The position numbers were made by a program, and so were the translations under genes. From an uncultured Clostridia bacterium (GTDB taxonomy: Bacteria > Bacillota > Clostridia > TANB77 > CAG-508): 64,000 nt of DNA. The notes under the pieces were generated by a model that searched no databases, was not told the origin of the DNA, and saw only the letters and a list, made by a program, of their open reading frames with translations. Below, piece after piece: positions 19,722-46,963 of this stretch (position 1 is its first letter; every line of letters starts with the position of its first letter). The DNA lies in contig CANRHX010000001.1 in NCBI GenBank assembly GCA_947630545.1, positions 20,499-84,498 on the forward strand, written 5' to 3'.

Positions 19722-19737
19722 AAGAAAGGAAACTTGA

Positions 19738-20550: not shown

Positions 20551-20618
20551 ACATATAAAAATGAAATATAAATAATATAGAAAATATAAAAACTATAAAA
20601 AATATAAGGAGGTGCCAA

Positions 20619-21223: not shown

Positions 21224-21244
21224 TAGGAACTACCGGTACTAATC

Positions 21245-23472: not shown

Positions 23473-23490
23473 AATGAAAGGATGTAGAAG

Positions 23491-24102: not shown

Positions 24103-24106
24103 TAAA

Positions 24107-25296: not shown

Positions 25297-28200
25297 ATGA
25301 AAGGGAAATTATTACAAAGATTAATTGCCGTGGTTTTAGTTTTATGTTTAACAGCAACTAATTTTATTTTTGTTGCTACAAGCACAGTATATGCTTTAAG
25401 CACAACAACTGAGTTAGAAGGAGGAAAAATCATATTTGAAGCATATTTTAAAAATGGCGATCAAAAAGTAACTGAAAAAACAGCAAATATATCAGAAGGA
25501 GATAAACTTTATTTAAATTTAGAATTAAAAGCAGGTAAACTCCAAGATGCAAAAATAAAAATAGACAATGCAAATTTCAAAATAATGGATGATAAAGTTA
25601 ATAATAAATTTATAAACAATATCAATACCAAAACAAATGAAATTGCATTAAATGAAATAAACTATAATGATAGTAAAAATGGAGTTATAGAAATAGAATT
25701 ACCAATTAAATTTGAAGAAGCAGAAAAAATACCTACTTCTTATTTTGCTAGGGAAAATAGTATAAACCTTTCAGGAAAATATAAAAATTCCTCTGAAAAT
25801 GCAAAAAATATACAAAGTGATACAATAAAAACAAAATTAACATGGGCACAACAAACAGATGGAATAAACTATAGTACAAAAATAGAGAAAGTAATTTATT
25901 TTGATAATAAAACATTAGTACAAGCAAACATCCAATCAACATACAAAGGAGCATATTTCCCAAAAGAAACAGAAACAGTAACAGTAAATCTTCCAAAAAT
26001 AGATAACATTACTCCAAGTTATACAGTTTTAGTAGATGGAAACAAACTAGATGTAAATCAAATAACAGATAGTATAGAGACACAAACAATGTCATTCACA
26101 AATAATTTTATAGATGATGAAAACATTACATGGAACAAATCTGGAAATTCATATAAAGTTATATATGTTTATGATGGAATAACAAAATTAGAAGACCCAC
26201 TACAAATACAACCAAAAATAGAAACAAAACTATTTAACAATGATAAAAAATTAACAGGAAGTCCAACATATAAATCAAATAAGCCACAAGGAACTATAGC
26301 AAGTGTTAGTGCAAAATCAACATCAGGAGATGTATATAAAGGTTATATGTATGCTAATTCAGAAGAAACAAGATATTCAGAAGAATATAACATGGAAATG
26401 TCTTATGTAGATGGAATTACATCAACATTTGAGTTAGCAGGAGATAAGTTCAAAACACAAGATGGTGAAGAAATTAGCACAAACAATCAAACCGAATATA
26501 AAGAAATAAGAATAAATAAAGAAAAACTAGTTAAAGTACTAGGAACAAAAGGTAGTTTAAAAATAATACCAGACAACAAGGAATTAAGTGAATTTGTAAT
26601 AAACTCAACCAGTTCAGCTGATGAAAATGGAAACATAGTAATAAACAATGATAGAATTAAAGGATCACACAATGTAACAATTCAAGTAACATCAGCAGAA
26701 AACCCAGGAACATTAACAATTTTAGCAACTAAAGCTATAAAAGGAAATGCTGGATATGAAAAAGACACATTAAAAACAATAAATGCAATAGAAACAACTA
26801 TAAAATCATATACAGATAATGTAGAAGGAACATCAACTGCGTCAGCAACAACAGGATTAAAAGAAACAGTAACACAAGCAACAATAACAATGAATAACAA
26901 CAATATACTTTCAACAACAAGTACAAACAACATTGAATTCATTGCAACTTTAAAAACAGGTACAATGGATACAGATTTACTAAAAGAGCCAACAGTAAAA
27001 ATCATATTGCCAGATGAAGTAACAAAAATTGAGTTAAGTTCAGTATCTGCTTTATATGCAGAAAAAGAATTAAAAATAGCAAGTGCACAAGTAGTTGATA
27101 ACAACAAAGCAATATTAGTAAAACTAGATGGTGAGCAATTCAAATATAACAATAAATTTATTGAAGGTATAAAAATTACTGTAAATGCACAAATAACATT
27201 AAATGATTCTGCAACATCAAGAGATACAAAAATTACAATGAAATATACAAACGAAAATAGTGCTAATAAAGAATATACAGCAACTACTGATGTATCAGTC
27301 CAAGCACCTTATGGAATTATTAAAAAAGCAGCTATTTCTGCATACTTTGAAACAGAAAACAATGGAACAGAAACATTAACAACTAGATTAATAAACAATT
27401 ATGGAAAATCAGTTGAAAACATAGCTATAATTGGAACAATGCCAAGCGTAAAATTATCTAAAAATGAATTTGAAAAAGGAATAAAAGACAGTTTCCAATC
27501 AAGCTTCTCTAGTGATAAAAATAAAAAGGCAAATATAGAAATAAAATATTCACAAGATGAAGAAAATTTCAATGATAGCTTTGAAAATGCAAAATTATAT
27601 AAAATAATATTAAAAGATAATAAATTAGAAAGTAAAGAAATGTTAGGAATAAAATTCACATTAAATATTTCTCAAATTTTACCAAACTTTAAACTTTCTT
27701 ATATATATGATAGTGATGAAAAGGTTGAAAATTTACAAATTAATGAAATGACATCAGGAACAAGCAAAAATGAAAATAAAAAACCAGAAACATCAGGAAA
27801 TACAGGAACAGAAGAACAATCAGGAGAAACAAGACCAACAAATCCAACAACACCAACAACTCCAAATGCTGAAAAAGATGAAAATCTAAGAGTAGGATTA
27901 AATATAAAATCAGGAAATACTGAATTAAAAGATGGAGATGAAATATTTGCAGGGCAAACAATAAGATATACCTATAAAATATTAAATAATACAGGAAAAG
28001 AAGTAAAAAATATAAAACTTGTAGTAAATCATGAAAATGCAAATATATTCGAAGAACAAACAGAGCAACAAACTAATACAGCAAGACCTGATGAAAAAAT
28101 AAATTTCACATATGAAGTAGAAACAGAAAAATCAAGCAAAGAGTACACTATAGGTACAATGAAAGATGGAGAAACAAAAACTATAACATATCAAGTAAGA

Positions 28201-30315
28201 GTTAAAGAAGGTGTACAACAAACAAAAGTAGTAACTGAAGTACAAGCAGATGGAATGAAAACATTAAAATCTGAAAAATCTAATAAAGTAAAATCAGCAC
28301 AATTAAAACTAGGGCTAACAAACAATGTATCAAAAGAAATAGGAACAGTAGAAAATAATATATTTGCTAACACATTTGAAATAAAAAATACATCAAATGA
28401 AACTTTAAAAGATATATCAGTTAAGTTTACAATTCCAAAAGAATTTGAATATGTAGAAGTTTATGAATTAGATCCTAGTAACAATTATCAAATTATACAA
28501 CAAGACAAAAATTATTTAGTATTTAATGTTAAAGAACTAGCATCAGGAGCAACAAAGGAATTAAATGTTTCTTTAAGAACAATTGATGGAAAACCAGAAG
28601 AAGAATCTGTTTCAATTAACTATACAGCTACAGTAAACAATAACACATATTACTCTAATGAAGTAGATATTGCATTAAAACAAGCATTATCAACAAAATT
28701 AGAAACAAAACAAGTTGTAAATGCTACAGGAATTTTAAAAACAGGAGATAAATTAATTTATAAAATTGCAATAAAAAATGTTGGAGAAAATTCAGATGGA
28801 ATAACAATAGAAGACTTTGTCCCAGAAGCTGCTGTTGTAAAAAATGCATATTACACAATAGGAGATAAACAAACAAAAATAGAAAATATTACAGATAATG
28901 CAATTGTGGAAACTATTACAATAGATAAAAATCAACAAGCAGATGTATATATAGAAACTGAAATAGATGAAGCAAAAACAGGAAAAGAAGAAATTACAAA
29001 CTATGCAACATTAGTTGGAAATTATTTAGAAAAAGAAATAAAAACAAACGAAGTTACACATAAATTACAAGCTAATATCCAAGAAGATTCAGAAACAACA
29101 GAAAATCCTGGTTCAGAAGAAGAACCAGGAACAGAAGAAAATCCAGGAACAACAGAAAATCCAGGTTCAGAAGAGAAACCAGGAACAACAGAAAATCCAG
29201 GATCAACAACTAACCCAGGAACAACAGGAAATAGTGAAGGAACAGGAACAATACCAGCGGAAGTTGAAATGAAAGGAAGCATTTCAGGTGTTGCATGGTT
29301 AGACGAAAATAAAAATGGTATTAGGGAAACAAATGAGAAAATGCTATCAGGAATAAAAGTATCACTTGCAAATGTTGCTACCGGAAAATATGTAACAAAT
29401 TCACAAGGAAATAAATTAGAAGTTACAACAAATGCAAATGGTGAATACATATTTGAAAACATTCCAAATGGAAAATATATTGTAACATTTTTATTTGATA
29501 ACACAAAATATAGAAACACAGAATATAGAGTAAGTGGCGCAACAGAAAAGACAAATTCTGATATTATAACAAGTAAAATAAGTTCAAATGATGATGATAT
29601 AAAATATGGAATAACAGATACATTAGAACTTACTACAGATAGTTTAGAAAATGTAGATGCAGGATTTATAGAAAATGAAATATTTGACTTAAGTTTACAA
29701 AAATACGTAACAAAAGTTACAGTACAAAATACATCAGGAACAGTAGTAAAAGAATATAGCAATGAACAATTAGCAAAATTAGAAATAGATGCTAAAAACA
29801 TAGCAGGTTCAACAGTATTAATTGAATACTCAATACGAGTAAAAAATGAAGGAGAAATTGCTGGATATGCTAATGAAATCATAGATTATATACCAAAAGA
29901 TTTAACATTTAGCTCTGAAATTAATAAAAACTGGTATACATCAACAGATGGATACTTGCATACAACAGCATTATCAAAACAAATAATTAATCCAGGAGAG
30001 ACAGAAACAATTAAATTAGTCTTAGTAAAAACAATGACAGAAAATAATACAGGATTAACATCAAATAAAGCTGAAATTGCAAAATCAAGTAACGATTTAT
30101 CAATACCAGATAAAGATTCAAAAGCTGGAAACGCTATACAAGGAGAAGATGATATTAGTGAGGCAGAATTAATTATATCAATTAGAACAGGTATTGGATA
30201 TACAATCGGAACTATAGTAGCAATAATAGCATTAACCGCAACAGGTATAATAGTTTATACAAAAAAGAGAAAGGGGGTAAATCATAATGCAAAAAAAATC
30301 GATAAAATTAATTAG
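25297..30315 (+). CDS. giant cell-wall-anchored surface protein A (DUF11 repeats, Cna-B/SdrD-B domain, [S/T]xxTG sorting signal)
   Basis: 1672 aa. It has a signal peptide, DUF11-like repeats ('TIRYTYKILNNTGKEVKNI...') and a PGTE-rich linker. The Cna-B-type domain is 'SGVAWLDENKNGIRETNEKMLSGIKVSL...NGEYIFENIPNGKYIV'. The C-terminus is 'SIRTG' plus a TM plus 'KKRKG'. Confidence 0.8.
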   Translation: MKGKLLQRLIAVVLVLCLTATNFIFVATSTVYALSTTTELEGGKIIFEAYFKNGDQKVTEKTANISEGDKLYLNLELKAGKLQDAKIKIDNANFKIMDDKVNNKFINNINTKTNEIALNEINYNDSKNGVIEIELPIKFEEAEKIPTSYFARENSINLSGKYKNSSENAKNIQSDTIKTKLTWAQQTDGINYSTKIEKVIYFDNKTLVQANIQSTYKGAYFPKETETVTVNLPKIDNITPSYTVLVDGNKLDVNQITDSIETQTMSFTNNFIDDENITWNKSGNSYKVIYVYDGITKLEDPLQIQPKIETKLFNNDKKLTGSPTYKSNKPQGTIASVSAKSTSGDVYKGYMYANSEETRYSEEYNMEMSYVDGITSTFELAGDKFKTQDGEEISTNNQTEYKEIRINKEKLVKVLGTKGSLKIIPDNKELSEFVINSTSSADENGNIVINNDRIKGSHNVTIQVTSAENPGTLTILATKAIKGNAGYEKDTLKTINAIETTIKSYTDNVEGTSTASATTGLKETVTQATITMNNNNILSTTSTNNIEFIATLKTGTMDTDLLKEPTVKIILPDEVTKIELSSVSALYAEKELKIASAQVVDNNKAILVKLDGEQFKYNNKFIEGIKITVNAQITLNDSATSRDTKITMKYTNENSANKEYTATTDVSVQAPYGIIKKAAISAYFETENNGTETLTTRLINNYGKSVENIAIIGTMPSVKLSKNEFEKGIKDSFQSSFSSDKNKKANIEIKYSQDEENFNDSFENAKLYKIILKDNKLESKEMLGIKFTLNISQILPNFKLSYIYDSDEKVENLQINEMTSGTSKNENKKPETSGNTGTEEQSGETRPTNPTTPTTPNAEKDENLRVGLNIKSGNTELKDGDEIFAGQTIRYTYKILNNTGKEVKNIKLVVNHENANIFEEQTEQQTNTARPDEKINFTYEVETEKSSKEYTIGTMKDGETKTITYQVRVKEGVQQTKVVTEVQADGMKTLKSEKSNKVKSAQLKLGLTNNVSKEIGTVENNIFANTFEIKNTSNETLKDISVKFTIPKEFEYVEVYELDPSNNYQIIQQDKNYLVFNVKELASGATKELNVSLRTIDGKPEEESVSINYTATVNNNTYYSNEVDIALKQALSTKLETKQVVNATGILKTGDKLIYKIAIKNVGENSDGITIEDFVPEAAVVKNAYYTIGDKQTKIENITDNAIVETITIDKNQQADVYIETEIDEAKTGKEEITNYATLVGNYLEKEIKTNEVTHKLQANIQEDSETTENPGSEEEPGTEENPGTTENPGSEEKPGTTENPGSTTNPGTTGNSEGTGTIPAEVEMKGSISGVAWLDENKNGIRETNEKMLSGIKVSLANVATGKYVTNSQGNKLEVTTNANGEYIFENIPNGKYIVTFLFDNTKYRNTEYRVSGATEKTNSDIITSKISSNDDDIKYGITDTLELTTDSLENVDAGFIENEIFDLSLQKYVTKVTVQNTSGTVVKEYSNEQLAKLEIDAKNIAGSTVLIEYSIRVKNEGEIAGYANEIIDYIPKDLTFSSEINKNWYTSTDGYLHTTALSKQIINPGETETIKLVLVKTMTENNTGLTSNKAEIAKSSNDLSIPDKDSKAGNAIQGEDDISEAELIISIRTGIGYTIGTIVAIIALTATGIIVYTKKRKGVNHNAKKIDKIN

Positions 30316-33300
30316 AAATATTGCATTTTCATTAATTGCATTTATATTATTAATAAGTATATTAGTAAGTACAAATATTGCAAAATCAATTGATGATGCA
30401 GAAACAGTTAATGATGTTATTGATTGCACAAGAAATTCATCATGGTATGATTTTGACCCTAGTGATGTAGTTAACAAAAAAATAGTATCTGGAAGAGATA
30501 TAAGTTTTAGCAAAGCTGGAGGATATTGTGTTGACCCCCATCAAAGAGCATATAAAGGAACATACAAAGTTGTAAATGTAATAGATGTAAACAATAATAC
30601 TTCAGGAAATTCCATAAGAGTATATGGTATAAATAAAAATGGAAAAACAACAAATAAAGAATATTCATTCTCAAATGAAAATGTAAAACCAATACTAATG
30701 TTAGCTTATTTAGCAAAAAAAGGAAACAATGAAACTAGTGTATCTACTGATCCTGCAGTTTACATGAAAAATTCATATAAAGCAGCAATGCCAGGAGTAT
30801 TCTTAAAAGAAACTTATCTAAAACAAATGATTAAAGTAGGATTGTCAGATTATTTAATACCATCAACATATTCTGCATATGATGAAGGAGCATGGGAGAA
30901 ATTAGCAGAAGCTCAAAAAGAAGCGACAAAATTAGCTAAACAAGGAAGTAAAGAAACAGCTGCTATGAGTGATAAAACAGACAAAGATAATGTAAGCTCA
31001 TTTACATCAGATGATGGAAAATTCTTCATAGGACCATATAAATTAGGATTAACAGGAGAATGTAAAATTGGAGAAATAAAAATAAATGGTAGCATAGATG
31101 CTGTTGGAATATCAACAGATGGAAAAAGTGTAGAAGATTTTGACAAAGTAGTAGATGAAAAAGAATTTTACATAGTATTGGACAAAGAAATAGATGACAT
31201 AAAATCTATAAAAATTACAGCTAAAGAAAGTATTAGTTCAGTAAAAGCTAGATTATTAATGGTAAGTGGTGGACTTAGCCAAAACTTCTTCATATATAGG
31301 GCAGAAGATAAACCACAAAAACCATCAATCGATTTAGAAGTACCAAAATTTGGTAAACTTGAAATTAAGAAAACAGACCAATTTAAAGATGCTGATGTAA
31401 GTTTAAAAGATATAGGATTTGTGGTATGGAGCGAAAGTAAAAAAGCATATATAAATGTAAATAATGGAAAAATATCATACGTTGATTTCGAAACAGCTAA
31501 GAAAGACGAAAACGAATTTAAAACAGATAAAAACGGAGTAGTACCAACAATAGATAATTTACCACTTGGAAAATATAAAATATATGAAACATCTATACCA
31601 TCACAATTACAAGATTACTATGAATTAAAAGAAATAACATTACCAGACAAAAACGGAAAAGAAGTAAAAGCCAATGCAAAAGTAGTAACTATAAAAAATG
31701 ATGCTGGTAAAACTCAAAGTTATGTACAAGTAAAATCAGGTCAGACAGCAACAGTAACAGCTATAAATTATAGAGACTTTAACACATTAATTCTAAAAAA
31801 GATAGAAGAAGATACAGGAGTACCTTTAAATGGAATAGAATTTAAATTATATAGTTTAATAGAAGGAAAAAAAGGATGGGTTCAAGTAGATAGCGAAAAC
31901 AGAGTTACAGGAGTAACAGACGACTTCGAACAAGCATCTCCATTTGTAACAGTAAACAATGGCGTTACACCAAAAATTTATAGAGTTCCTTTAGGAAAAT
32001 ATGCTGTATATGAAACAGACCTAGGTGAATATGAAGATATATATCAAGAATTAGAGCCAATAAGAATGGAAGGTGGTAACACTGGAGGAAAGGGATTATT
32101 CAAAGGAAATATAACTGTTGAAGCAAATAAAGAAAATGAATTTAGTGTTACAGTAGACAATAAACAAGTTTATACTTCATTAATTCTTAAAAAGATTGAC
32201 GAAGATACAGGATTACCTTTAAGTGGAATAGAATTTAAATTATATAGTAAAGTAGAAGGAAAAATTGGATGGGTTCAAGTAGATAGCCAAAATAAAGTTA
32301 CAGGAGTAACAGGCAAATTTGAAGAGGGATCTAAATTTGTAACAGGAGCCGATGGACTTACACCAAAAATTACAAAAATTCCTTTAGGAGAATATGATGT
32401 ATATGAAACAGGTTTAGGCGAATATGAAGATATATATCAAGAATTAGAGCCAATAATAATTGACGGCAGTGATACTGGAGGAAAGGGATTATTCAAAGGA
32501 ACTATAACTGTTGAACCAAATGAAGAACATGAATTTACTGCGACAGCAAAAAATAAACAAGTTTATATAAGCATATCAGGAAATGTTTGGGAAGAAGTAG
32601 CAGTAGGAAAAGACCAAAAAACAACTAATGGTTTATTAGACAGTAATGATAACATGATAAATGGTATAGAAGTAAAATTAATGGATAAAACAACTAACCA
32701 AGCTATTCAAACAACCAAAACATCAAATGGCGGAAAATATAAATTTGAAAAAGTTAAGATAGAAGAATTAGAAAATTACTATATCGAATTTACATATGAT
32801 GGTGTAACATATCAGAGTGTAATAACACCAAATGCTGATTCTACAACGCAAATAACTGATGAAAATACATCAAAAGCATCAGAAACAGCTGAAGCAAGAA
32901 AAGAGTTAAATAATGCATTTACAGAGTTAACAGGTGAAGGACAAAAATTACATTACAAAAAAGACATTACATTAACATATAGTAAAGAAAAAGATGGAGA
33001 CAATACAGTAGTAACTTCAAATAACATATGTGACAGAAATAAAGGTATAAATGCATCACAAAGAATTGTAAACTTAAGCAAATTAGGAGATTTTACAATA
33101 GAAGGTGATACAACAAGCGATTATTTATCTAGCAAGTACAAAGAATTAAAAGCAAGTAACGAAAAAGAAATAATTAGAGAAATAAAAAATGTTAACTTAG
33201 GATTATATGTAAGAGAACAACCAAACTTAGCTTTAGTAAAAGATGTAAGTACAGCAAATGTTTCTATAAATGGAAAAACATATGTATATAGTTATGAAAA

Positions 33301-35533
33301 AAGATTAGATCAAGATGCAATTCCAACAGCAGTCGGAGTAGTATTTGAAAGAAAGAACCCAATAGATGAAAGCTTAAAATACAAAATGCCAGTATACAGA
33401 GCAGATGCTGCATATGAAAATGAAGATAAATCTAAAGAGTTACAAGTATCAATTACTTATAAAGTTGGATTAGTAAATAACTCTAAATCACTATATGGAA
33501 AAGTAAATGCCTTAAATGAATACTATTCAAAAGAATTAGAATTCACAAAAATGTACACTTTAGAAAATAATAAAGAACAAGTACTAAGTAATAAGGCAAA
33601 TGAAAGTACAAGTGGAAACTATAAATCAGCTAAATTTGATAATTTAAACATTCAAGTAGAACCACAAACAACACAATATATTTATATACAATTTAAATTA
33701 CCAAAAGAAGGCTTCTATAATATGGCAAGCAAAGAGCTTGATACTACTAAAGACTTTAGAAACTATGCAGAAATTGCAAGTTACACAATATATTCAGATA
33801 AATTTGATAGCTTATATGCAGGATTTGACACAAATTCAATACCAAACAATTTAGACATTAATAAAGAAGCAGAAACAATGGAAGATGATTCAGACAAAGC
33901 ACCAGGATTACAGGTTGTAGATGCTGGAGAAAGAACATTAAATGGTATGGTATTTGAAGACAGTGACAAAGATAAAAATGATCAACAAAGAATAGGCGAT
34001 GGAAAATATGCAGATGGTGAAAACAAAATAGCCAATGTAAAAGTAAGATTATTAGATAGCAATGGTACTGAAGTAAAAGTATATAATTCAGAGAAAAAAG
34101 AATTCATTGATCAAAGTAGCAAATCAAATGAAAATGGTGAATATACAATCTCTGGTTTCATACCTGGAGACTACACAGTTCAATATACTTGGGGTGAAGG
34201 CGAAGGTACAGTAGTAAAAAACGGAAAAGATACAGCCATTACAGTAGATTCATACAAATCTACAATATGGACAGATGAAAGCAAAAAAGAAAAAGAATCC
34301 AAAACATGGTATTTACAAAATGACCCAAGATATTCAGATGCATTAGATAATTATGATATTAGATTAGAATTAGATAAAAATAATGCTGACCTATTAAATG
34401 TATTAAGTCAACAAGTATCAGATGTAAATGGAGTATCAAATAAAGCAACAATGAAATCAGATACTAAAGGAATAGAAGTAGGAATTGAATTAAAAGACTA
34501 TGAAGAAGTTTTAGTAAACGATGCACCTGTATATAAATTTAACATTAAAAATATAGATTTAGGTCTAATTGAAAGACCAAGACAAAATATGGAAATATCA
34601 AAATCTGTAGAATCATTAAGATTAGTAACAGATGCAAACCAAGTTATATTAGAAGCTAAAGTAAATGATGAAGGCAAATTAGAAGTTCAAGCAGGTTCTG
34701 TAACTGGTGGACCAAGTTATGGATATATAAGAGGAGAGACAGATAGTGACCTTATCGATAGTGGAACTTCTGCAATAGTTGGATACAAAATAACTGTAAA
34801 GAATACTAGTGAGAAAGACTATGCTTCTAAAGACTACTACTTATATGGAAAAGTAGACGAAAGCAAAGCAATTGCATTAAAAGCAACAGCAATATATGAT
34901 TACTTAAAAGGATTAAATGCAGACGTAGAAGCAAATATAAACTGGAAAGTATTAGAACATGAATCTGATGAAACAAAAGTACCAACAGTATCAGAAAAAA
35001 CAGCTACAATGATAGCTCAAAACGATTCAAGCAGTAGTTGGTATTCATACTCATACAAAAATGATAAGGGAGAAACAGTTAACGGTGTTGTAAAAGAAGT
35101 TGCTGGTAGTGAAACAAAAGAGACACTTAAAGAATACGTAGAAGAAATGCAAGAATCAACAGAAGTAACATTTAAAAATTTAATAACTGAAAACAGAGTA
35201 GTGTCAAAATTTGAAGAAAATGGAAAACCAGAAATTGAATTAAAAGCAGGAGAAGAAAAAGTAATTAAATTCTCTGGAAAACAACTATTATCAACTACTA
35301 ACGATATAAGATTTGACAATGATGTAGAAATAGAAAATGTAATTAGAAAAGGAGAAACAGGAAGAAGCGTTATTGTTGAATATAGTAAATTCTATAACAA
35401 ATCAGAATGGATAACTATTACACCACCTACTGGAGAAGATAAAGATTATACAGCTATAATAATTATATCAGTTGCAGCAGTTGCAATTTTAGGAGCAGGT
35501 ATAGTATTCATTAAGAAAAAAGTTTTAAAATAA
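30287..35533 (+). CDS. giant cell-wall-anchored surface protein B (tandem SpaA/Cna-B-like domains, TPPTG sorting signal)
   Basis: 1748 aa. Its start overlaps the end of A by 29 nt, with RBS AAGGGGG. It has a signal peptide. There is an internal 116-aa tandem duplication ('ILKKIEEDTGVPLNGIEFKLYS...'). SdrD-B-like modules are 'SGNVWEEVAVGKDQKTTNG..' and 'NGMVFEDSDKDKND..'. The C-terminus is 'TPPTG' plus a TM plus 'KKKVLK'. Confidence 0.8.
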   Translation: MQKKSIKLIRNIAFSLIAFILLISILVSTNIAKSIDDAETVNDVIDCTRNSSWYDFDPSDVVNKKIVSGRDISFSKAGGYCVDPHQRAYKGTYKVVNVIDVNNNTSGNSIRVYGINKNGKTTNKEYSFSNENVKPILMLAYLAKKGNNETSVSTDPAVYMKNSYKAAMPGVFLKETYLKQMIKVGLSDYLIPSTYSAYDEGAWEKLAEAQKEATKLAKQGSKETAAMSDKTDKDNVSSFTSDDGKFFIGPYKLGLTGECKIGEIKINGSIDAVGISTDGKSVEDFDKVVDEKEFYIVLDKEIDDIKSIKITAKESISSVKARLLMVSGGLSQNFFIYRAEDKPQKPSIDLEVPKFGKLEIKKTDQFKDADVSLKDIGFVVWSESKKAYINVNNGKISYVDFETAKKDENEFKTDKNGVVPTIDNLPLGKYKIYETSIPSQLQDYYELKEITLPDKNGKEVKANAKVVTIKNDAGKTQSYVQVKSGQTATVTAINYRDFNTLILKKIEEDTGVPLNGIEFKLYSLIEGKKGWVQVDSENRVTGVTDDFEQASPFVTVNNGVTPKIYRVPLGKYAVYETDLGEYEDIYQELEPIRMEGGNTGGKGLFKGNITVEANKENEFSVTVDNKQVYTSLILKKIDEDTGLPLSGIEFKLYSKVEGKIGWVQVDSQNKVTGVTGKFEEGSKFVTGADGLTPKITKIPLGEYDVYETGLGEYEDIYQELEPIIIDGSDTGGKGLFKGTITVEPNEEHEFTATAKNKQVYISISGNVWEEVAVGKDQKTTNGLLDSNDNMINGIEVKLMDKTTNQAIQTTKTSNGGKYKFEKVKIEELENYYIEFTYDGVTYQSVITPNADSTTQITDENTSKASETAEARKELNNAFTELTGEGQKLHYKKDITLTYSKEKDGDNTVVTSNNICDRNKGINASQRIVNLSKLGDFTIEGDTTSDYLSSKYKELKASNEKEIIREIKNVNLGLYVREQPNLALVKDVSTANVSINGKTYVYSYEKRLDQDAIPTAVGVVFERKNPIDESLKYKMPVYRADAAYENEDKSKELQVSITYKVGLVNNSKSLYGKVNALNEYYSKELEFTKMYTLENNKEQVLSNKANESTSGNYKSAKFDNLNIQVEPQTTQYIYIQFKLPKEGFYNMASKELDTTKDFRNYAEIASYTIYSDKFDSLYAGFDTNSIPNNLDINKEAETMEDDSDKAPGLQVVDAGERTLNGMVFEDSDKDKNDQQRIGDGKYADGENKIANVKVRLLDSNGTEVKVYNSEKKEFIDQSSKSNENGEYTISGFIPGDYTVQYTWGEGEGTVVKNGKDTAITVDSYKSTIWTDESKKEKESKTWYLQNDPRYSDALDNYDIRLELDKNNADLLNVLSQQVSDVNGVSNKATMKSDTKGIEVGIELKDYEEVLVNDAPVYKFNIKNIDLGLIERPRQNMEISKSVESLRLVTDANQVILEAKVNDEGKLEVQAGSVTGGPSYGYIRGETDSDLIDSGTSAIVGYKITVKNTSEKDYASKDYYLYGKVDESKAIALKATAIYDYLKGLNADVEANINWKVLEHESDETKVPTVSEKTATMIAQNDSSSSWYSYSYKNDKGETVNGVVKEVAGSETKETLKEYVEEMQESTEVTFKNLITENRVVSKFEENGKPEIELKAGEEKVIKFSGKQLLSTTNDIRFDNDVEIENVIRKGETGRSVIVEYSKFYNKSEWITITPPTGEDKDYTAIIIISVAAVAILGAGIVFIKKKVLK

Positions 35534-35548
35534 TATAACTTTTTGAAA

Positions 35549-35580
35549 AACAAGTAGATTTAAAAATCTACTTGTTTTTT
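35549..35580 (+). terminator. rho-independent terminator after adhesin gene B
   Basis: The stem acaagtagattt/aaatctacttgt has a 4-nt loop and is followed by TTTTTTT. Confidence 0.6.
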
Positions 35581-35581
35581 T

Positions 35582-35644
35582 GTGTCACTGGTTCCGGGTT
35601 TGGTTGACACATTTTGTGTCAAAGATTCCAGGTTTGGATTAGTC
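35582..35644. repeat. REP-like palindromic repeat, 2 units (second degenerate), orientation A
   Basis: gtgtcactggttccgggtttggttgacac and gtgtcaaagattccaggtttggattagtc. Confidence 0.75.
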
Positions 35645-35921
35645 ATATATTGCAAAAAGCTAGGGAAATAGCTAGTTTGCAATTTAATGAAAATATTTTT
35701 AATTGAAAAAAATTATATGATATGAAAATGTAATAAAAATTTAATTTAAGCACAGCAAAAAAACCCGAAAACTATTTCCGTAGTAGCTTTAGAGTTAATT
35801 CATGTAATATTAGAAGAATAGCTCAAATAAGCTTATTGACTAAAAAAAACAAAAATATTAATATAAAATTAAGTTGTAATGTGTAAAAAGCAACTTAACA
35901 ATAAACTTTAGGAGGCATGAA

Positions 35922-38900
35922 ATGAAAGAAAATCGTATGAAAAAATTTAAAACAATCTCTATAGCCATTTTGTTTATCGCAATATTAGGTTATGTGCTAG
36001 TAACTACTGTTATTGCAGCATTTACTGCCAAAGTGGATACTAGTAAAGTCAAAAATGTAACAAGTATAGGCTTAGAGAAGTATGTAAACTATAACTTAGA
36101 TGGGCAAAAAGGAAGTCTATTGAAATTAGACATACAAAATGCAATTGAATATGAAGAAGGAGAAGATTATGTTCCAATAGCTGCTACTGGAATATTAATA
36201 AATGTGCCTAAAATTAATGATAAATTCCCTGAAAGTGCTCAAATAATAGAAAAAAGTACAGAATTAACTAATGGAGATCCAGAAGGAAAAAATGTAAGAT
36301 ATTCATATGACTCAAGTACAGGAAAACTTTTGATTGCGATTTTAAATACAGAAGATGCCGAAGGAAATATATACAAAGACTACAAAGCAAACGCTAAAGA
36401 TAAAATAAGTGTTATCCTAGATTATGATGAAAATTGTTATACAGAAGAAGCATTAAAAAGAGAATTAAATATTACAGGAATGCTACAAACAATATTAGCA
36501 TCAGAACAAGAGGCAAAAATTCAAAACACAATAGATAAAAAGATAGAACTTGAAAAAGATGTTTCAAATGTAATTTCTAGCAATGTACAAATAGGCGAAA
36601 TATACAATGGATTTATAAAATTAAATGCTGAAAATGACACAAATTATAGAACAAATTATAATGAAAATGTGGAAATAGATATAAGCAAAAAAGACATAGC
36701 AGATGAAACTAAAGTTGAAATAAAAAGCAATTTTGTAAAAGATGACGAAAAAATAGATACAGATGAAATGATATATACTTCAAGTATAATTAACAAAAAT
36801 AAAGTTTTAGATATTTTAGGAGAAAATGGAAACTTAAAAATATTAAATGAAAATAATGAAATTATAGGAGAAATAAATAAAGAAACAGAAACAGATGAAA
36901 GTGGAAACTACGAAATAAAATATGACAAAAAAGTATCAAAACTATTTGTTGTATTTAGTAAACCACAAAAAGTAGGAACAATAAAAATAAATAATATTAA
37001 ACAAATAACAGAAAAAGTTAAAGATGCAGAATTTAATAAAATTCAAACTACTAGTAAAATAACAAGTATTAATAACGTAAAAGTAGAAAATATAAACCAA
37101 GACAATGAAACAGCAAAGACAGAAGGAACACAAGATACACAAACAACAAATACAGTAGAACCAAAAGAAATTTATAATTTTGAACAAACAAACGAAATTG
37201 ATATAAAAGATTCAAAAACAGCAGTAAAATTAACTATAAACAAAGCTAATTGGACAAATGAAAGACAAAATGAAATTGAATTTAACGTAAAATTATTAGC
37301 GAGCGAAAGCAAACATAACTTATTTAAAAATCCAACAGTAGCAATTAAATTACCAGATGAAGTCCAGAAAGTAATTTTTGATGATACAATATTTACTTAT
37401 GGAAATGGATTAACTTTAGTTCAAACAAAATATGACGAAAAAAATAAAATAATAAAATTAGTATTTAAAGGAGAACAAAAAGAATATTTATCAAAAGATA
37501 TAGCAGAAGGAACAGAAATAACGATTCCAGCAACAATTATATTAAATCAAGAATTTGAAAGTAAAAATACAAAAATTGCCGTAGCATATTCAAATTCAGC
37601 AACCAAAGAAAAAGGAAGCTTTGGAGTAGACATTTCTCTAGAAAACTTTAAAAAAGAGACAACTAATATTGAATCAAATAAATCTATAAAGATATTTAAC
37701 ACAGAAAAACAATTATCAAGTGAAGCACAAACTGAAAATGTTACAGTTGATGGAATTAAAATGGAAGTTACACCTGCAAGAGGCAACGTTACTCTAAATA
37801 ATGGAGATACAGTTTATGAAGGAGAATTTATAAAATATAATGTTAAATTGACAAATACTACAGAGAGTGCAATTGATAATGTTAAAGTTGTAGCTGCTAT
37901 TCCAGAAGGAACAACTTATGCACAATATGTAGGAAATTTTAACAAATATGATGTAGAGAGTAATTATAATTTTGATGAAAAACAAAAAAATAAAGAAATT
38001 GCCATAGGAACATTAGAAGCTGGAAAGAGCATAAATACATATTATGAAGTTAAGATAAATAATTTAGAAGAAGGTCAAGCAGAAAAACAAATTCGAACAG
38101 ATATTAATGCATATGTTGCAGATAATTTAGCAGCAAAATATAATATAACACATAAAATTGAAAAAGCAGAATATGAAATATTGGCAACAGGAACTAGAAG
38201 AGGAATTAAGGGCTTTAACATCTTTTTAAATATACAAAGTAAAAATGGCAAAAGCGAGAATGTAACATTAAAATGGGATTTAGCAAAGGAACTAAAATTT
38301 TATAGTATAAATAATACTATTACACATAAAATTATAAGAGAAGGTGGAGATTCTAACGAGATAACATTACAGCCAGGAGAATATTTTATATATGCAGAAT
38401 TTAATAAAGAAACGACTCTAAAGACAAGTGATAATGATTATGAAGATTTATTTAATAATTTTACAATTAACAACAAATATAGATCAAATGAGCTATTAAC
38501 TACATTTTACTATCCAAGTGTCTCAATAAAAATGAGTTCCGATACAGAAGGAGAAAAAATAAAATATGGTGAAGAAATTAATTATAAAATAGAAGTAAAA
38601 AATACCTCTAAAATTGATTCAAGCATATTTTCAGCTGGAACGGTTTTTGAAAAAAATTGTATCGAAATAGAATTACGAGACTATTTACCACAAGATGTTG
38701 AGCCAATATCAATGGAATATAATGAATTTGCTTATGAAAACATAGATAATGATGAAGATTTCTATGATAAGGAAAAATTTTTTAAATATACAGAAACACA
38801 AAAAAGTAAAAATATTGAAAACGCAATATATTTGGAAGATGGAACACAAGAGGCAAATGTAAATTTACATCTTGTAGTACCTTATGGAAAAACAGTAACA

Positions 38901-40823
38901 GTAAATGCAAAAGTTAAAGCAGGTCAGGTATTTAATGAAACAAAAATAAACAATATAGCAACCTTATATAAAACTATATATGGAGAGACAGATGATGTTA
39001 TAGGTTATAATAAATTTTTGGATTCAAACACAGTATCACATATCATAAGACCATATGACTATATAGAGGAGGTAGAAGGAAACAAATATACAGTATCAGG
39101 ATTAGCATGGGAAGATGAAAATGAAGATGGTCAAAGGCAAGAAAATGAAAAATTATTATCAGGAATTGAAGTATTATTATTGAATTCAAAAGGAGAAATA
39201 GCTGATAAAATTGAAACTGATAATAATGGAAAATATGTATTTGAAAATGTTAAAACTGATGACTACATAGTTATATTTAAGTATAACACCAAAAAATATA
39301 AATTGACTCAATATAAAAAAACAAATGTTAGTGATGATTTGAATTCAGATGTTACAGAGAATGCTAGAAAGTTAGATAGTAGTGAAAGTGTAATATGTGG
39401 AGAAACAGATATATTTTATTTAAATGCAGATATTTCAAATATGGATATAGGATTAATAGATTTGAATATAGAAGAACCAGAAGAACCAGATAATCCAGAG
39501 AACCCAAGCAATCCAGATAATCCAGATAATCCAAGTAATCCAGATAACCCAGATGACCCAAGTAACCCAAGTAACCCAAGTAACCCAAATAATCCAAATG
39601 ACCCAAGCAACCCAAGCAATCCAAGCAATCCAAGTAATCCAAGTAATCCAAATGACCCAAGTAACCCAGATAATCCAAATAATACAAACAATTCGGAAAA
39701 TTCAACTACACAAACAATATCAGGATTAGCATGGAAAGATGCAAACGAAGATGGTCAAAGGCAAGATAATGAAACACTATTATCAGGAATTGAGACATTA
39801 TTAATAAATTCAAATGGTAAAACTGTAAATAAAACAAAAACTAATAATAATGGGGCATATACTTTTGGAAATATAAATACAGGAAATTATATTGTAGTAT
39901 TTAAATATGATACAAACAAATATAGATTAACAGAATACAAAAAATCAGGAATTATTAGTGATTTAAATTCTGATGCAATAAAAAGTACTAGAGAAATAGA
40001 TGGAGAAACAATAACTTGTGCAGTAACAGATCTAATAAGAGTAAATTCAAATATTTCAAATATAGATATAGGACTAATTGAAAATAAAAATTTTAATCTT
40101 AAGGTTAATAGTTATATTTCTAATGTAAGTGTAAAAACTGAAAGTGGAGAAAAGAAAAATTCATATAATGATTCTAATATTGCAAAAGCAGAAATAAGAT
40201 CAAAAGAAATTGATGGAGCAACAGTTACTGCAACATACAAAATTGTAATTACAAATGATGGAGAACTAGCTGGAACAGTAGGAAAAGTAGTAAGTAAATT
40301 ACCATCAGGGTTTACTTTGGCACAAGAATCTAAAGGTTCATGGAGTAAAGATTCAGACGGAAGATTTGTAAATACTAGTTTAGCAACTAGAAAAATAGGT
40401 GCTGGAAAGAGTGTAGAATTAATATTAAAAGTAAAAAAACAGACAAACTCAGAAAGTGTAGGAACCTTTACAAATACAATAACAATAGAAAATATAAAAA
40501 ATGAATCAAACATAGCAGATAATAATGAAAGTGATAATACTTCAAGTACTGATTTAATTATTTCTATAAGCACAGGATTAATAATATATATATCTATAGC
40601 AGTAATAGCAATTATACTAACTATAATACTATTTATATTAGGTAAAAAAAGAAAAATTTTTAAAGGAATAAAAATTTTCGGAATAGTTATTATATTATTA
40701 ATTCTTGGAATAAATAACTCAAATGCATATGACTATGAGGAAGACTTCTTTCAAGTAGGCGATAAGATTTATGTAACATGGCCACGGAGGAGCAGGGGCT
40801 ACTACGTTTACACATACAGTTAA
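35922..40823 (+). CDS. giant cell-wall-anchored surface protein C (DUF11 repeats, two Cna-B/SdrD-B domains, PxNPxN linker, SISTG sorting signal), read in-frame into the signal peptide of gene D
   Basis: 1633 aa with a signal peptide. The two Cna-B domains are 'SGLAWEDENEDGQRQENEKLLSGIEV' and 'SGLAWKDANEDGQRQDNETLLSGIET'. Between them is a proline-rich linker 'NPSNPDNPDNPSNP...'. The sorting signal is 'SISTG' plus a TM plus 'KKRK', ending at 40655. There is no stop codon after it. The ORF continues 56 codons through a second signal-peptide-like segment to 40823. Confidence 0.75.
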   Translation: MKENRMKKFKTISIAILFIAILGYVLVTTVIAAFTAKVDTSKVKNVTSIGLEKYVNYNLDGQKGSLLKLDIQNAIEYEEGEDYVPIAATGILINVPKINDKFPESAQIIEKSTELTNGDPEGKNVRYSYDSSTGKLLIAILNTEDAEGNIYKDYKANAKDKISVILDYDENCYTEEALKRELNITGMLQTILASEQEAKIQNTIDKKIELEKDVSNVISSNVQIGEIYNGFIKLNAENDTNYRTNYNENVEIDISKKDIADETKVEIKSNFVKDDEKIDTDEMIYTSSIINKNKVLDILGENGNLKILNENNEIIGEINKETETDESGNYEIKYDKKVSKLFVVFSKPQKVGTIKINNIKQITEKVKDAEFNKIQTTSKITSINNVKVENINQDNETAKTEGTQDTQTTNTVEPKEIYNFEQTNEIDIKDSKTAVKLTINKANWTNERQNEIEFNVKLLASESKHNLFKNPTVAIKLPDEVQKVIFDDTIFTYGNGLTLVQTKYDEKNKIIKLVFKGEQKEYLSKDIAEGTEITIPATIILNQEFESKNTKIAVAYSNSATKEKGSFGVDISLENFKKETTNIESNKSIKIFNTEKQLSSEAQTENVTVDGIKMEVTPARGNVTLNNGDTVYEGEFIKYNVKLTNTTESAIDNVKVVAAIPEGTTYAQYVGNFNKYDVESNYNFDEKQKNKEIAIGTLEAGKSINTYYEVKINNLEEGQAEKQIRTDINAYVADNLAAKYNITHKIEKAEYEILATGTRRGIKGFNIFLNIQSKNGKSENVTLKWDLAKELKFYSINNTITHKIIREGGDSNEITLQPGEYFIYAEFNKETTLKTSDNDYEDLFNNFTINNKYRSNELLTTFYYPSVSIKMSSDTEGEKIKYGEEINYKIEVKNTSKIDSSIFSAGTVFEKNCIEIELRDYLPQDVEPISMEYNEFAYENIDNDEDFYDKEKFFKYTETQKSKNIENAIYLEDGTQEANVNLHLVVPYGKTVTVNAKVKAGQVFNETKINNIATLYKTIYGETDDVIGYNKFLDSNTVSHIIRPYDYIEEVEGNKYTVSGLAWEDENEDGQRQENEKLLSGIEVLLLNSKGEIADKIETDNNGKYVFENVKTDDYIVIFKYNTKKYKLTQYKKTNVSDDLNSDVTENARKLDSSESVICGETDIFYLNADISNMDIGLIDLNIEEPEEPDNPENPSNPDNPDNPSNPDNPDDPSNPSNPSNPNNPNDPSNPSNPSNPSNPSNPNDPSNPDNPNNTNNSENSTTQTISGLAWKDANEDGQRQDNETLLSGIETLLINSNGKTVNKTKTNNNGAYTFGNINTGNYIVVFKYDTNKYRLTEYKKSGIISDLNSDAIKSTREIDGETITCAVTDLIRVNSNISNIDIGLIENKNFNLKVNSYISNVSVKTESGEKKNSYNDSNIAKAEIRSKEIDGATVTATYKIVITNDGELAGTVGKVVSKLPSGFTLAQESKGSWSKDSDGRFVNTSLATRKIGAGKSVELILKVKKQTNSESVGTFTNTITIENIKNESNIADNNESDNTSSTDLIISISTGLIIYISIAVIAIILTIILFILGKKRKIFKGIKIFGIVIILLILGINNSNAYDYEEDFFQVGDKIYVTWPRRSRGYYVYTYS

Positions 40824-41178
40824 TGGAAATTCATATACATGGAAATGTCAAAACGAAGATATATGGGATAATGTGACCAACATTACAAAAACAGTTACAG
40901 AAGTTACAGGACCTTTTTACGTAGGACAAGCTTCAACAACAACAAGTGACGAATATAAATGGTATTTAGAGAAAGTTAACACAGATGCAGACGTAAAAAT
41001 AGTTGCTAAAAATGACAAATATATAATCGGACCTCTTGGAATACAAAATGTTGGAAAATATAAATGTGAAAATTTCTCTTTTGAAGTTATAGGTGATGGA
41101 GGAATAAGTGATACAGTTACAGAGGTTTGTAATGCAGATGGATCTAATCCACATCAAGATAATGGTCAATCACGGTAA
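40656..41178 (+). other. N-terminal region of adhesin gene D, split across three reading frames
   Basis: The signal-peptide-like segment 'IFGIVIILLILGINNSNA|YDYEEDFF...' is in the frame of gene C. The next part is in frame +1 (the 40873-41178 ORF, plus 33 upstream codons). The rest is in the frame of the main D ORF from about 41170. This implies two indels, or pseudogenisation of the N-terminus of D. Confidence 0.5.

Positions 41179-46963: not shown

What the first reader, a model, noticed from the sequence alone, without database searches (positions are those of the whole stretch)
30150..46963. Non-LPXTG sorting signals ([S/T]xxTG + TM + K/R tail) on all four giant proteins, with no sortase in the window
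The C-termini end in SIRTG, TPPTG, SISTG and TSPTG. Each is followed by an approximately 20-residue hydrophobic segment and a KKRK/KKKV tail. That is the tripartite layout of sortase substrates, but the pentapeptide is not LPXTG. It is closest to class-B-type motifs such as the (S/P)PXTG of Clostridioides difficile SrtB. No sortase ORF is recognisable anywhere in the 64 kb. The dedicated transpeptidase must therefore be encoded elsewhere, or anchoring uses another mechanism.
Basis: partly seen in the sequence, partly recalled or inferred. Interest (0 to 1): 0.65.

Follow-up and report, generated by a model that had tools for sequence, protein, structure and literature searches.

The report
Variant wall-anchor signals on giant adhesins
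[quoted passage not shown] Two of the four 'proteins' are really one broken fusion gene, and the enzyme that would process the signal could not be found.

Summary
T-G is invariant in every homologue examined: 217 distinct tails from 93 loci, and the profile of the g2-type tail finds 1224 protein clusters. The '[S/T]xxTG on four proteins' picture needs correcting. There are two signal types. Type 1 (g1, g3) is [VL]I[IL]S[IV]xTG followed at once by the helix, and the S-I-x residues are modelled inside the last beta-strand. Type 2 (g2, g4) is [TIVL]PxTG-[ED]N..Y, then helix, then IKKKVL. It has the layout of LPXTG and C. difficile SrtB signals, and a few homologues read LPPTG or IPPTG. The g3 signal is internal: the ORF runs on into a second signal peptide. 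In at least 21 related genomes g3 and g4 are one 2800-3200-aa ORF. Here that fusion is broken by two frameshifts, so g4 has no start codon or signal peptide. The g2 family has a thioester-domain (TIE adhesin) head. No sortase lies in the window, or in the fetched flanks (up to 10 kb each side) of 92 related loci. Whole genomes could not be searched. Best reading: variant sortase-type anchors (confidence about 0.55). A stable membrane anchor remains possible. Novelty: a new variant of a known kind.

The parts
25297..30315 (+). g1, type-1 giant surface protein (1672 aa). It has an N-terminal signal peptide (25297-25395), SdrD_B, DUF7927 and CLIPPER-like beta-sandwich domains, and an ENPGT-rich linker.
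   Evidence: the AF2 model of the last 353 aa resembles SdrD B domains and shaft pilins
30178..30273 (+). g1 type-1 anchor signal: SIRTG (30178-30192), hydrophobic helix (30193-30261), KKRK (30262-30273). S-I-R are modelled in the last beta-strand; T-G lie in a 4-residue coil before the helix.
   Evidence: TIGR01167 14.5 bits, cut-off 15.9
30287..35533 (+). g2, type-2 giant (1748 aa). It overlaps the g1 stop by 29 nt. It has a signal peptide (30287-30382), a thioester-domain-like head, and SpaA, SdrD_B and CarboxypepD_reg stalk domains.
30518..31294 (+). Putative thioester pair of the g2 head: invariant Cys81 in GGYCVD (30518-30535) and invariant Gln332 in SQNFFI (31277-31294).
   Evidence: invariant columns; Foldseek top hits are the B. 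anthracis TIE protein 6fwv and the E. faecium TIE86 thioester domain 6fwy; motif definitions from PMC6194298
35420..35530 (+). g2 type-2 anchor signal: TPPTG (35420-35434), EDKDYT spacer, helix AIIIISVAAVAILGAGIVFI (35453-35512), KKKVLK (35513-35530).
   Evidence: TIGR01167 18.2 bits, above the 15.9 cut-off, when scanned alone
35922..40823 (+). g3 ORF (1633 aa): a type-1 giant with a signal peptide (35922-36017). The ORF runs past its own anchor signal.
40563..40727 (+). Internal hairpin cassette: SISTG (40563-40577), helix 1 (40578-40643), basic loop KKRKIFKGIK (40644-40673), and a second hydrophobic, signal-peptide-like segment IFGIVIILLILGINNSNA (40674-40727).
40805..41183 (+). Two frameshift zones (about 40805-40840 and 41163-41183) that break the g3~g4 fusion. 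The stretch between them (40840-41163) is read in a third frame.
   Evidence: tblastn of the intact L020 fusion ORF is collinear in three frames; the same frames occur in a second assembly, L099, 99.987% identical with no gaps
41108..46963 (+). g4 reading frame (1951 codons open): a type-2 giant paralogous to g2 (33% identity over about 1500 aa). It has no start codon or signal peptide of its own.
46802..46960 (+). g4 type-2 anchor signal: TSPTG (46802-46816), 13-aa spacer, helix (46856-46915), KKKVINKKHKKNFKD (46916-46960).
   Evidence: TIGR01167 only 9.3 bits

Best explanation
[quoted passage not shown] They are carried by paired giant fibrillar adhesins of a clade of uncultured, low-GC gut and rumen Clostridia. 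The genes sit in a conserved locus: mreBCD, pbp2, minC, two small genes, then T1-T2-T1-T2. Type-1 proteins (g1, g3) end their last beta-sandwich domain with ...[VL]I[IL]S[IV]xTG and go straight into the helix. Type-2 proteins (g2, g4) have a thioester-domain head and end with [TIVL]PxTG-[EGAD]N..[YF], a helix and IKKKVL. Both tails descend from one C-terminal module (PGN...E[ND]D...A[DE]-strand-xTG). Inferred mechanism: after Sec export the helix and basic tail hold the protein in the membrane. A sortase-type transpeptidase encoded elsewhere cuts between T and G and joins the Thr to peptidoglycan. In relatives the g3~g4 fusion would be resolved by that cut plus signal-peptidase cleavage after the second signal peptide, leaving a small hairpin peptide in the membrane. 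In this genome the fusion is broken by two frameshifts, so only g1, g2 and g3 are expected to be made and exported. Shown here: the sequence anatomy, the conservation, the fold resemblance, the fusion and frameshifts, and the absence of a nearby sortase. Inferred: cleavage, wall linkage and the identity of the enzyme.
For: T-G is invariant: 2 of 9 invariant columns out of 732; T1712, T1715 and G1716 in the g2 family; 217 of 217 distinct tails in 93 loci; the only invariant columns of the tail alignments. A profile of the type-2 tail finds 1224 clusters at 50% identity, and among the 150 best listed the match is always at or within a few residues of the C-terminus. At the homologous position some members read LPPTG, IPPTG, IPSTG or VPSTG, which are canonical or class-C-like motifs. 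Of 47 isolated tails, 32 match TIGR01167 LPXTG_anchor, and the g2 tail scores 18.2 bits against a 15.9 cut-off. The type-2 layout equals that of C. difficile SrtB substrates (SPKTGDETQL..., PPKTGDSTTI...; PMC4155245). The cargo is typical sortase cargo. The g2 head resembles the B. anthracis TIE protein, which is LPATG-anchored. The g1 C-terminal region resembles SdrD B domains and the shaft pilins SpaD, BcpA and RrgB. There are SpaA, SdrD_B and CLIPPER isopeptide-type domains. g1, g2 and g3 have N-terminal signal peptides.
Against: No sortase was found in the 64 kb, in the DNA fetched beyond the window's right-hand end (L093, L095), or in about 1.9 Mb from 92 related loci. No homologue in any locus has an adjacent sortase. 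Type 1 has no proline, and its P5-P3 residues are modelled inside a folded beta-strand (pLDDT about 95). The g3 and g4 tails fail the LPXTG_anchor model, g1 is just below the cut-off, and all four are below the Pfam Gram_pos_anchor cut-off. Whole-protein scans hit no anchor model. The type-2 helix and tail (LGxG, IKKKVL) are more conserved than a discarded retention signal needs to be. In C. difficile, the SPSTG protein CD0183 and the SPQTG protein CD2768 are not processed in vivo, so a motif alone does not prove cleavage (PMC5569036 abstract).
Confidence: 0.55

Rival explanations
1. The helices are permanent C-terminal membrane anchors and nothing is cleaved. T-G would then be a conserved hinge or helix cap between the last beta-sandwich and the transmembrane helix. 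In the fusions, the first half is held by a two-helix hairpin.
For: No sortase lies near any of about 90 loci. S-I-x of type 1 is part of the folded last strand, so only T-G is exposed. The type-2 helix and tail are unusually conserved (LGxG, IKKKVL). The tail profile's best 150 matches showed no complete shorter protein, so the tail was seen only on this giant family and not on a varied set of cargo. Viable fusion ORFs show that a free C-terminus after helix 1 is not needed.
Against: Invariance of two residues in 217 of 217 tails, across families only 25-30% identical, is far beyond what a hinge usually needs. Variants at that position drift towards LPxTG and IPxTG rather than away from them. 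The LPXTG_anchor model matches. Homologous cargo types elsewhere are wall-anchored.
Confidence: 0.27
2. T-G marks a cleavage site for a membrane-associated protease other than a sortase, for example a rhomboid-type or still unrecognised enzyme. That enzyme would shed the giants or resolve the fusion proteins.
For: Type 1 places a small residue (G) at the edge of the helix, with hydrophobic residues three positions before and two after. From my own knowledge this resembles rhomboid site preferences. No sortase was seen. The internal cassette in the fusions needs some processing to separate the halves.
Against: No rhomboid, CPBP or exosortase-type gene is in the window by Pfam. No known C-terminal sorting model other than the LPXTG-type matched well: Loki-, Heimdall-, PEF- and GG-CTERM models match at most 8 of 47 tails, none better than E = 0.012, and those shown for the window's tails are below cut-off. 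In type 2, T-G lies about 9 residues outside the helix, with Pro two residues before it, which is a sortase-like and not a rhomboid-like geometry.
Confidence: 0.12
3. The giants are subunits of a sortase-polymerised pilus. Type-1 'TGG + helix' signals would be pilin signals joined to a lysine of the partner.
For: After T-G, type 1 often reads G followed by hydrophobic residues, as in pilin signals (the comparison is from my own knowledge). The domains resemble shaft pilins. T1 and T2 genes are strictly paired.
Against: No YPK pilin motif occurs in any of the four proteins. No class C sortase is in or near any locus. The proteins are 3-5 times larger than pilins, and g2 has a tip-adhesin-like thioester head.
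Confidence: 0.05

Closest known systems
Canonical LPXTG cell-wall sorting signal (TIGR01167 / PF00746; class A sortase substrates)
   Same: It has an N-terminal signal peptide and a C-terminal motif ending in T-G, followed by a helix of about 20 residues and a Lys/Arg tail. The cargo is made of isopeptide- and thioester-domain stalks. The g2 tail passes the TIGR01167 cut-off when scanned alone.
   Different: Leu-Pro is replaced by T-P (type 2) or S-[IV] (type 2 lacks Leu; type 1 lacks both Leu and Pro). Three of the four window tails are below cut-off. No sortase was found.
Clostridioides difficile SrtB substrates, (S/P)PXTG (PMC4155245, PMC5569036)
   Same: Both have Pro at P4, T-G, then an acidic residue and about 4 polar residues before the helix: SPKTGDETQL against TPPTGEDKDY. 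Both come from low-GC Clostridia. In C. difficile the substrates are scattered and served by a single housekeeping sortase.
   Different: P5 is Thr (or I, V, L) rather than S or P. g4 (TSPTG) and type 1 (SIxTG) do not fit. The enzyme has not been identified.
TIE (thioester-isopeptide-ester) adhesins with class II thioester domains, e.g. B. anthracis BaTIE, E. faecium TIE86 (PMC6194298)
   Same: The g2 N-terminal model's best PDB matches are 6fwv and 6fwy. It has an invariant Cys in Y-C-V-D and an invariant Gln 251 residues later. A stalk of CnaB/SpaA-like domains follows.
   Different: These proteins are 3-4 times longer. TM-scores are low (about 0.2) because the model spans several domains. 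The TQxxΦW motif is absent from close relatives. The anchor is TPxTG, whereas BaTIE has LPATG.
Streptococcus pyogenes pilus sorting signals (VPPTG, EVPTG/QVPTG; TIGR03065 class), recalled from my own knowledge and not tested here
   Same: They are non-Leu xPxTG motifs on isopeptide- and thioester-domain proteins, processed by class-B-fold sortases.
   Different: Those loci encode their sortase next to the pilins. Here none is linked, and there is no pilin motif.
Stop-transfer plus internal signal-peptide hairpins of viral polyproteins. This is an analogy from general knowledge for the g3~g4 fusion cassette.
   Same: One ORF encodes two ectodomains separated by a helix, a short basic cytoplasmic loop, and a second signal-like helix ending in an AxA-type site.
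   Different: This one is bacterial. The first helix is preceded by a sortase-like T-G. A text search for LPXTG, polyprotein, signal peptide and sortase together gave no bacterial precedent.

Membership tests
LPXTG-type sortase substrate | N-terminal Sec signal peptide | tested here: met
   g1, g2 and g3 start with K/R-rich N-termini followed by hydrophobic cores. g4 has none of its own. This was judged by eye; no signal-peptide predictor was available.
LPXTG-type sortase substrate | Pentapeptide L-P-x-T-G | tested here: not met
   No LPxTG in any of the four proteins. Only T-G is shared. A few homologues have LPPTG or IPPTG.
LPXTG-type sortase substrate | Hydrophobic segment followed by a positively charged tail | tested here: met
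   Segments of 20-23 residues (19-residue windows with mean Kyte-Doolittle hydropathy above 1.8) followed by KKRK or KKKV.
LPXTG-type sortase substrate | Score above the curated cut-off of TIGR01167 / PF00746 | tested here: inconclusive
   Tails scanned alone against TIGR01167 (cut-off 15.9 bits): g2 18.2 (pass), g1 14.5, g3 9.7, g4 9.3. For PF00746 the g1 and g2 tails score 15.0 and 12.3 bits (cut-off 20) and the g3 and g4 tails do not match. Whole proteins gave no hit. 32 of 47 family tails match at E of 10 or less.
LPXTG-type sortase substrate | A sortase (PF04203) encoded in the genome | not testable with these tools
   None in the window or in 1.9 Mb of related loci.
LPXTG-type sortase substrate | Cleavage between T and G and amide linkage to peptidoglycan | not testable with these tools
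   Needs biochemistry or mass spectrometry.
C. difficile SrtB substrates, (S/P)PXTG | Motif [SP]-P-x-T-G 17-45 residues from the C-terminus | tested here: not met
   g2 TPPTG (T at P5), g4 TSPTG (S at P4), g1 SIRTG, g3 SISTG. The family consensus is T-P-[PASN]-T-G. The distance from the C-terminus fits for g2 (32 aa after the G) and g1 (40 aa).
C. difficile SrtB substrates, (S/P)PXTG | Acidic residue after G, short polar spacer, helix, at least 2 basic residues | tested here: met
   Type-2 consensus TG-[EGAD]-N-x-[ND]-[YF]. In a rough split of the tails, 91 of the 136 counted as type 2 have 9 residues between T-G and the helix core, against Table 1 of PMC4155245. Type 1 does not have this spacer.
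Class II thioester-domain (TIE) adhesin | [YFL]-C-Φ-ζ cysteine motif and Φ-Q-ζ-Φ-Φ glutamine motif | tested here: met
   Invariant C81 in Y-C-V-D. Invariant Q332 in S-Q-N-F-F; the residue before Q is not hydrophobic, so this match is weak.
Class II thioester-domain (TIE) adhesin | Thioester-domain fold | tested here: inconclusive
   Foldseek hits: 6fwv E 2.6e-6 (probability 1.00) and 6fwy E 9e-4, but TM-scores are only 0.18-0.24 over a multi-domain model with pLDDT 82.7. The Cys-Gln distance in the model could not be read.
Sortase-assembled pilin | Pilin motif (YPKN lysine) and an adjacent class C sortase | tested here: not met
   No YPK in g1-g4. No sortase in any locus.
Other C-terminal sorting systems (NPXTG-Ruminococcus, GlyGly-, PEP-, PEF-, Loki-, Heimdall-CTERM) | Score above the curated cut-off of the NCBIfam model | tested here: not met
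   Rumino_NPXTG 21.5 bits, cut-off 23.5 (g2); Heimdall-CTERM 14.7 bits, cut-off 24 (g1). The other models match fewer tails and are also below cut-off.

The most novel reading that the evidence does not exclude
The clade carrying this locus has no sortase. The invariant T-G would then be the recognition site of an undescribed processing or anchoring enzyme. This enzyme, together with signal peptidase, would resolve about 3000-aa 'two-adhesin' polyproteins at an internal cassette made of an anchor signal followed by a signal peptide. That way of making paired surface proteins has not been described in bacteria.
Probability: 0.15. Interest if true: 0.85.

Novelty: new variant of a known kind. 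Interest (0 to 1): 0.55.

Why it matters
These giants are widespread. The genome-collection scan found 520 matching stretches that encode a relative (79 loci kept), and the tail profile finds 1224 protein clusters. They are probably covalent host- or particle-binding adhesins of abundant, uncultured gut and rumen Clostridia. Current annotation calls them 'hypothetical' or 'SdrD B-like' and misses their anchoring signal. Defining the signal as T-G, with type 1 reading S-[IV]-x-T-G and type 2 reading [TIVL]-P-x-T-G-[ED]-N, would let surface proteomes of these organisms be predicted. It would also widen the known sequence range of sortase-like signals. The fusion genes, with an anchor signal followed directly by a second signal peptide, give a simple natural test of whether the signal is cleaved. 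They are an unusual gene architecture in their own right.

Tried and rejected
(1) Chance motif: rejected on conservation.
(2) A hidden sortase among the un-named ORFs of the locus: the two small minus-strand ORFs (24107-24487 and 24471-24929) are a short C-terminally hydrophobic protein and a Cys-free protein. The 409-aa ORF 50647-51876 shows no N-terminal signal peptide or hydrophobic segment and has a single C-terminal hydrophobic segment. None is sortase-like. ORFs 5641-6696 and 63442-63903 have no Pfam match and no phmmer hit.
(3) Sequencing error as the cause of the g3/g4 frames: a second assembly from another sample is gap-free and 99.987% identical across the junction. L008/L009 and L080 are broken at a similar place. 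Error is therefore unlikely, though coverage is only about 3.6x.
(4) Whole-protein NCBIfam scans gave no anchor hit. Scanning isolated tails was needed.
(5) Extending the window through the look-up of encoding contigs gave only NRPS-like and GH94 genes beyond the right-hand end; the contigs found at the left end added no DNA beyond the window. No sortase.
(6) Looking for the type-2 tail on other, shorter cargo proteins: none among the best 150 profile hits; the short hits look like fragments.
(7) A literature search for a bacterial precedent of an internal sorting signal followed by a signal peptide found nothing relevant.
(8) A sortase search in the big protein database was considered and not run. 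Its word-based prefilter would return relatives of the query, not the clade's own enzyme, and hits cannot be tied to a genome.
(9) Pilus reading: no pilin motif.
Full report
WHAT THE WINDOW IS. The window has 25-33% G+C. It carries mreB-mreC-mreD, a PBP2-type transpeptidase and minC. Two small minus-strand ORFs follow, then about 21.7 kb of giant plus-strand reading frames. Identical or near-identical DNA occurs only in low-coverage ENA metagenome assemblies. The nearest genome records are uncultured 'Clostridia bacterium' or 'Clostridium sp.' MAGs from human, rabbit, goat and buffalo guts, including Clostridium sp. CAG:440 and CAG:575. The best protein-segment identity to these is 38-41%.

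THE OBSERVATION. The four motifs, hydrophobic segments and basic tails are at the stated places (coordinates are under 'parts'). None of the frames contains LPXTG, [LIV]PxTG, NPxT[NGS] or LPxTA. The wider pattern [LIV][PA]xTG matches only IAATG near the N-terminus of g3. No ORF of at least 150 aa in the window matches Pfam Sortase. A phmmer search with S. aureus SrtA and SrtB found nothing at E of 10 or less. The search covered every stop-to-stop ORF of at least 90 aa in the window and 92 fetched loci, 1.9 Mb in all. A TLxTC-type regular expression hit only antisense junk.

IS IT MORE THAN CHANCE? A loose [ST]xxTG pattern occurs 1-7 times per giant, so the pentapeptide as written is weak. The conservation is not weak. 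In 29 of 30 g2 homologues, down to 24% identity, the tail reads ...[VI]T-x-x-TG-[EG][ND][KR][DN]Y, helix, IKKKVL. In the 16-sequence alignment T1712, T1715 and G1716 are invariant. For the C-terminal 353 aa of g1, 35 sequences with 29% mean column identity have only 9 invariant columns out of 732. Two of these are T312 and G313. Across 93 loci, every one of 217 distinct large ORFs that end in a helix plus basic tail has T-G in front of the helix. A 46-position profile of the type-2 tail finds 1224 clusters (at 50% identity) among 1.84 billion representatives. In the 150 best listed, the match lies at or within a few residues of the C-terminus.

TWO SIGNAL TYPES FROM ONE ANCESTRAL MODULE. g1 and g3 share only their last 300 aa or so (35% identity). 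g2 and g4 are paralogous over about 1500 aa (33%). Type 1 (g1, g3) is [VL]-I-[IL]-S-[IV]-[RKS]-T-G followed at once by the helix, often as TGG. Type 2 (g2, g4) is [VI]-[IT]-[VI]-T-P-[PASN]-T-G-[EGAD]-N-x-[ND]-[YF], then a helix containing LGxG, then IKKKVL. The split into types is rough. Both are preceded by PGN...E[ND]D...A[DE], so the tails are homologous. An AlphaFold model of the g1 C-terminal region (pLDDT 87) places residues 301-311 in the last beta-strand, including S309, I310 and R311. T312 and G313 lie in a four-residue coil, and the helix spans 316-345. Its alternating hydrophobic pattern is structural. What is really shared is T-G at the junction between domain and helix. Type 2 adds a strand-breaking Pro. 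Among 144 representatives the pentapeptides are TPPTG 48, TPSTG 23, TPATG 13, TPNTG 12, TTPTG 8, IPPTG 7, TGPTG 6, VPSTG 3, IPSTG 3 and LPPTG 1, among others.

g3 AND g4 ARE ONE BROKEN FUSION GENE. The g3 ORF does not stop after KKRK. It continues IFKGIK-IFGIVIILLILGINNSNA, which looks like a signal peptide, and ends 32 codons later. The g4 frame has no signal peptide and no credible start. In at least 21 related loci (for example L020, L023, L024, L039, L045, L049, L051, L055, L068, L074, L084 and L088) the corresponding genes form a single ORF of 2800-3200 aa. Its order is: type-1 protein, S[IV]xTG, helix 1, a short basic loop (for example KFKIKPSKIIK), a second hydrophobic segment ending in an AxA-like site, then a type-2 protein with its own TPxTG, helix and KKKVL. 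L023 has both pairs fused. The intact L020 fusion aligns collinearly with the window in three successive frames: 40467-40805, 40840-41163 and 41183-41794. The window therefore carries this fusion with two frameshifts. A second assembly from another sample is 99.987% identical across 15.4 kb with no gaps. L008/L009 and L080 are broken at a comparable place. I cannot tell whether g4 is a recent pseudogene or is recoded. Its 1951 codons are still open in a genome with 28% G+C. g1 and g2 overlap by 29 nt in different frames, so single indels could convert separate pairs into fused pairs and back.

WHAT THE PROTEINS ARE. Pfam finds SpaA, SdrD_B, CarboxypepD_reg, DUF11 (renamed CLIPPER) and DUF7927 beta-sandwich domains. 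CLIPPER is an isopeptide-bond domain of fibrillar adhesins (bioRxiv 10.1101/2025.04.25.650565). The g1 C-terminal model resembles SdrD B domains and the shaft pilins SpaD, BcpA and RrgB. The g2 N-terminal 440 aa (pLDDT 82.7) match best the B. anthracis TIE protein 6fwv (E 2.6e-6) and the E. faecium TIE86 thioester domain 6fwy. The family has an invariant Cys in Y-C-V-D and an invariant Gln 251 residues later. These fit the [YFL]CΦζ and, weakly, the ΦQζΦΦ motifs of thioester domains (PMC6194298). The type-2 proteins therefore look like thioester-headed (TIE-like) adhesins, and the type-1 proteins are partner stalk proteins whose N-terminal part is unassigned. The locus order (mreBCD, pbp2, minC, two small ORFs, T1-T2-T1-T2) is kept down to 31% identity.

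COMPARISON WITH KNOWN SIGNALS. Scanned as whole proteins, none of the four hits an anchor model. Scanned as isolated tails, 32 of 47 family tails match TIGR01167 LPXTG_anchor, and 15 match the Ruminococcus NPXTG model. For the window's own tails the TIGR01167 scores are g2 18.2, g1 14.5, g3 9.7 and g4 9.3 bits against a cut-off of 15.9. For Pfam Gram_pos_anchor, the g1 and g2 tails score 15.0 and 12.3 bits against a cut-off of 20, and the g3 and g4 tails do not match. The type-2 layout is that of C. difficile SrtB substrates (SPKTGDETQL..., PPKTGDSTTI...). That enzyme cuts (S/P)PXTG between T and G and does not cut LPETG. TPPTG and TSPTG nevertheless do not strictly fit (S/P)PXTG. In vivo, two C. 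difficile proteins with SPSTG and SPQTG are not processed, so a motif alone is not proof.

MECHANISM AND ITS LIMITS. The best-supported reading is a variant sortase-type anchor (confidence 0.55). It rests on the invariance of T-G, the drift of variants towards LPxTG and IPxTG, the anchor-model matches and the nature of the cargo. Against it stand the lack of any sortase near about 90 loci, the proline-free and strand-embedded type-1 motif, and the strong conservation of the type-2 helix and tail. A permanent membrane anchor (0.27), a non-sortase protease (0.12) and a pilus reading (0.05) remain. The key test is whether genomes of this clade encode a sortase at all. It could not be run: the single genome-collection scan went to finding relatives, and only 10-kb flanks can be read.

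NOVELTY. Non-canonical sortase motifs are known, so the signal is a new variant of a known kind. The internal cassette of an anchor signal followed by a signal peptide, inside 3000-aa fusion ORFs, had no precedent in the one text search I ran. It is the most unusual feature found.

Noticed in passing
window 40563-41183; L017, L020, L023, L024, L039, L045, L049, L051, L055, L068, L074, L084, L088 and others: In many relatives, type-1 and type-2 giants are fused into one 2800-3200-aa ORF through a cassette of anchor signal, basic loop and second signal peptide. In this window the fusion is broken by two frameshifts, yet the 1951-codon g4 frame stays open. Pseudogene or recoding is unresolved.
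   Followed up: yes
window 30287-30315; L023 4733-13489 and 13831-22752: g1 and g2 overlap by 29 nt in different frames, whereas in L023 both T1-T2 pairs are fused. This suggests that T1 and T2 are made as stoichiometric partners, and that fused and separate states interconvert by single indels.
   Followed up: partly
window 17974-24929 and the same region in L005, L008, L011, L096: The giant-gene array always follows radC-mreBCD-pbp2-minC and two small conserved minus-strand ORFs (24107-24487 and 24471-24929). Neither small ORF has a Pfam match. One is a Cys-free protein and the other a small protein with a C-terminal hydrophobic segment. No minD or minE was seen next to minC anywhere in the window.
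   Followed up: partly
window 30518-31294: The g2 head has an invariant Cys81 (YCVD) and Gln332, and a fold resembling class II thioester domains. It is probably a covalent-binding adhesin head. The g4 counterpart lies in the frameshifted stretch.
   Followed up: partly
window 31785-32567; 29081-29232; 39486-39692: There is a 393-bp tandem duplication (85% match) inside g2, which duplicates one stalk domain. There are 18/54-bp repeats encoding an ENPGT-rich linker in g1, and 9/27-bp repeats encoding a P-N-N/P-S-N linker in g3, each just before the last domains.
   Followed up: no
window 2700-11800: A probable integrated element: a phage-type integrase (8932-9882), an ECF-like sigma factor (6677-7219), a GHKL ATPase (10093-11736), an HD-domain protein (3136-5055) and several ORFs without Pfam matches.
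   Followed up: no
window 50647-51876; L020 18169-19395: A 409-aa ORF with no Pfam match and a single C-terminal hydrophobic segment lies about 3.7 kb downstream of the giants. An ORF of the same length with a similar C-terminal sequence (only the last 60 residues were compared) sits at a similar distance in L020. Its function is unknown and it does not look like a sortase.
   Followed up: no
L093 and L095 (beyond window position 64000): Just past the right-hand end of the window lie a two-gene NRPS-like module (condensation, AMP-binding, PP-binding and reductase domains) and a large GH94 (glycoamylase-type) protein of more than 2200 aa.
   Followed up: no
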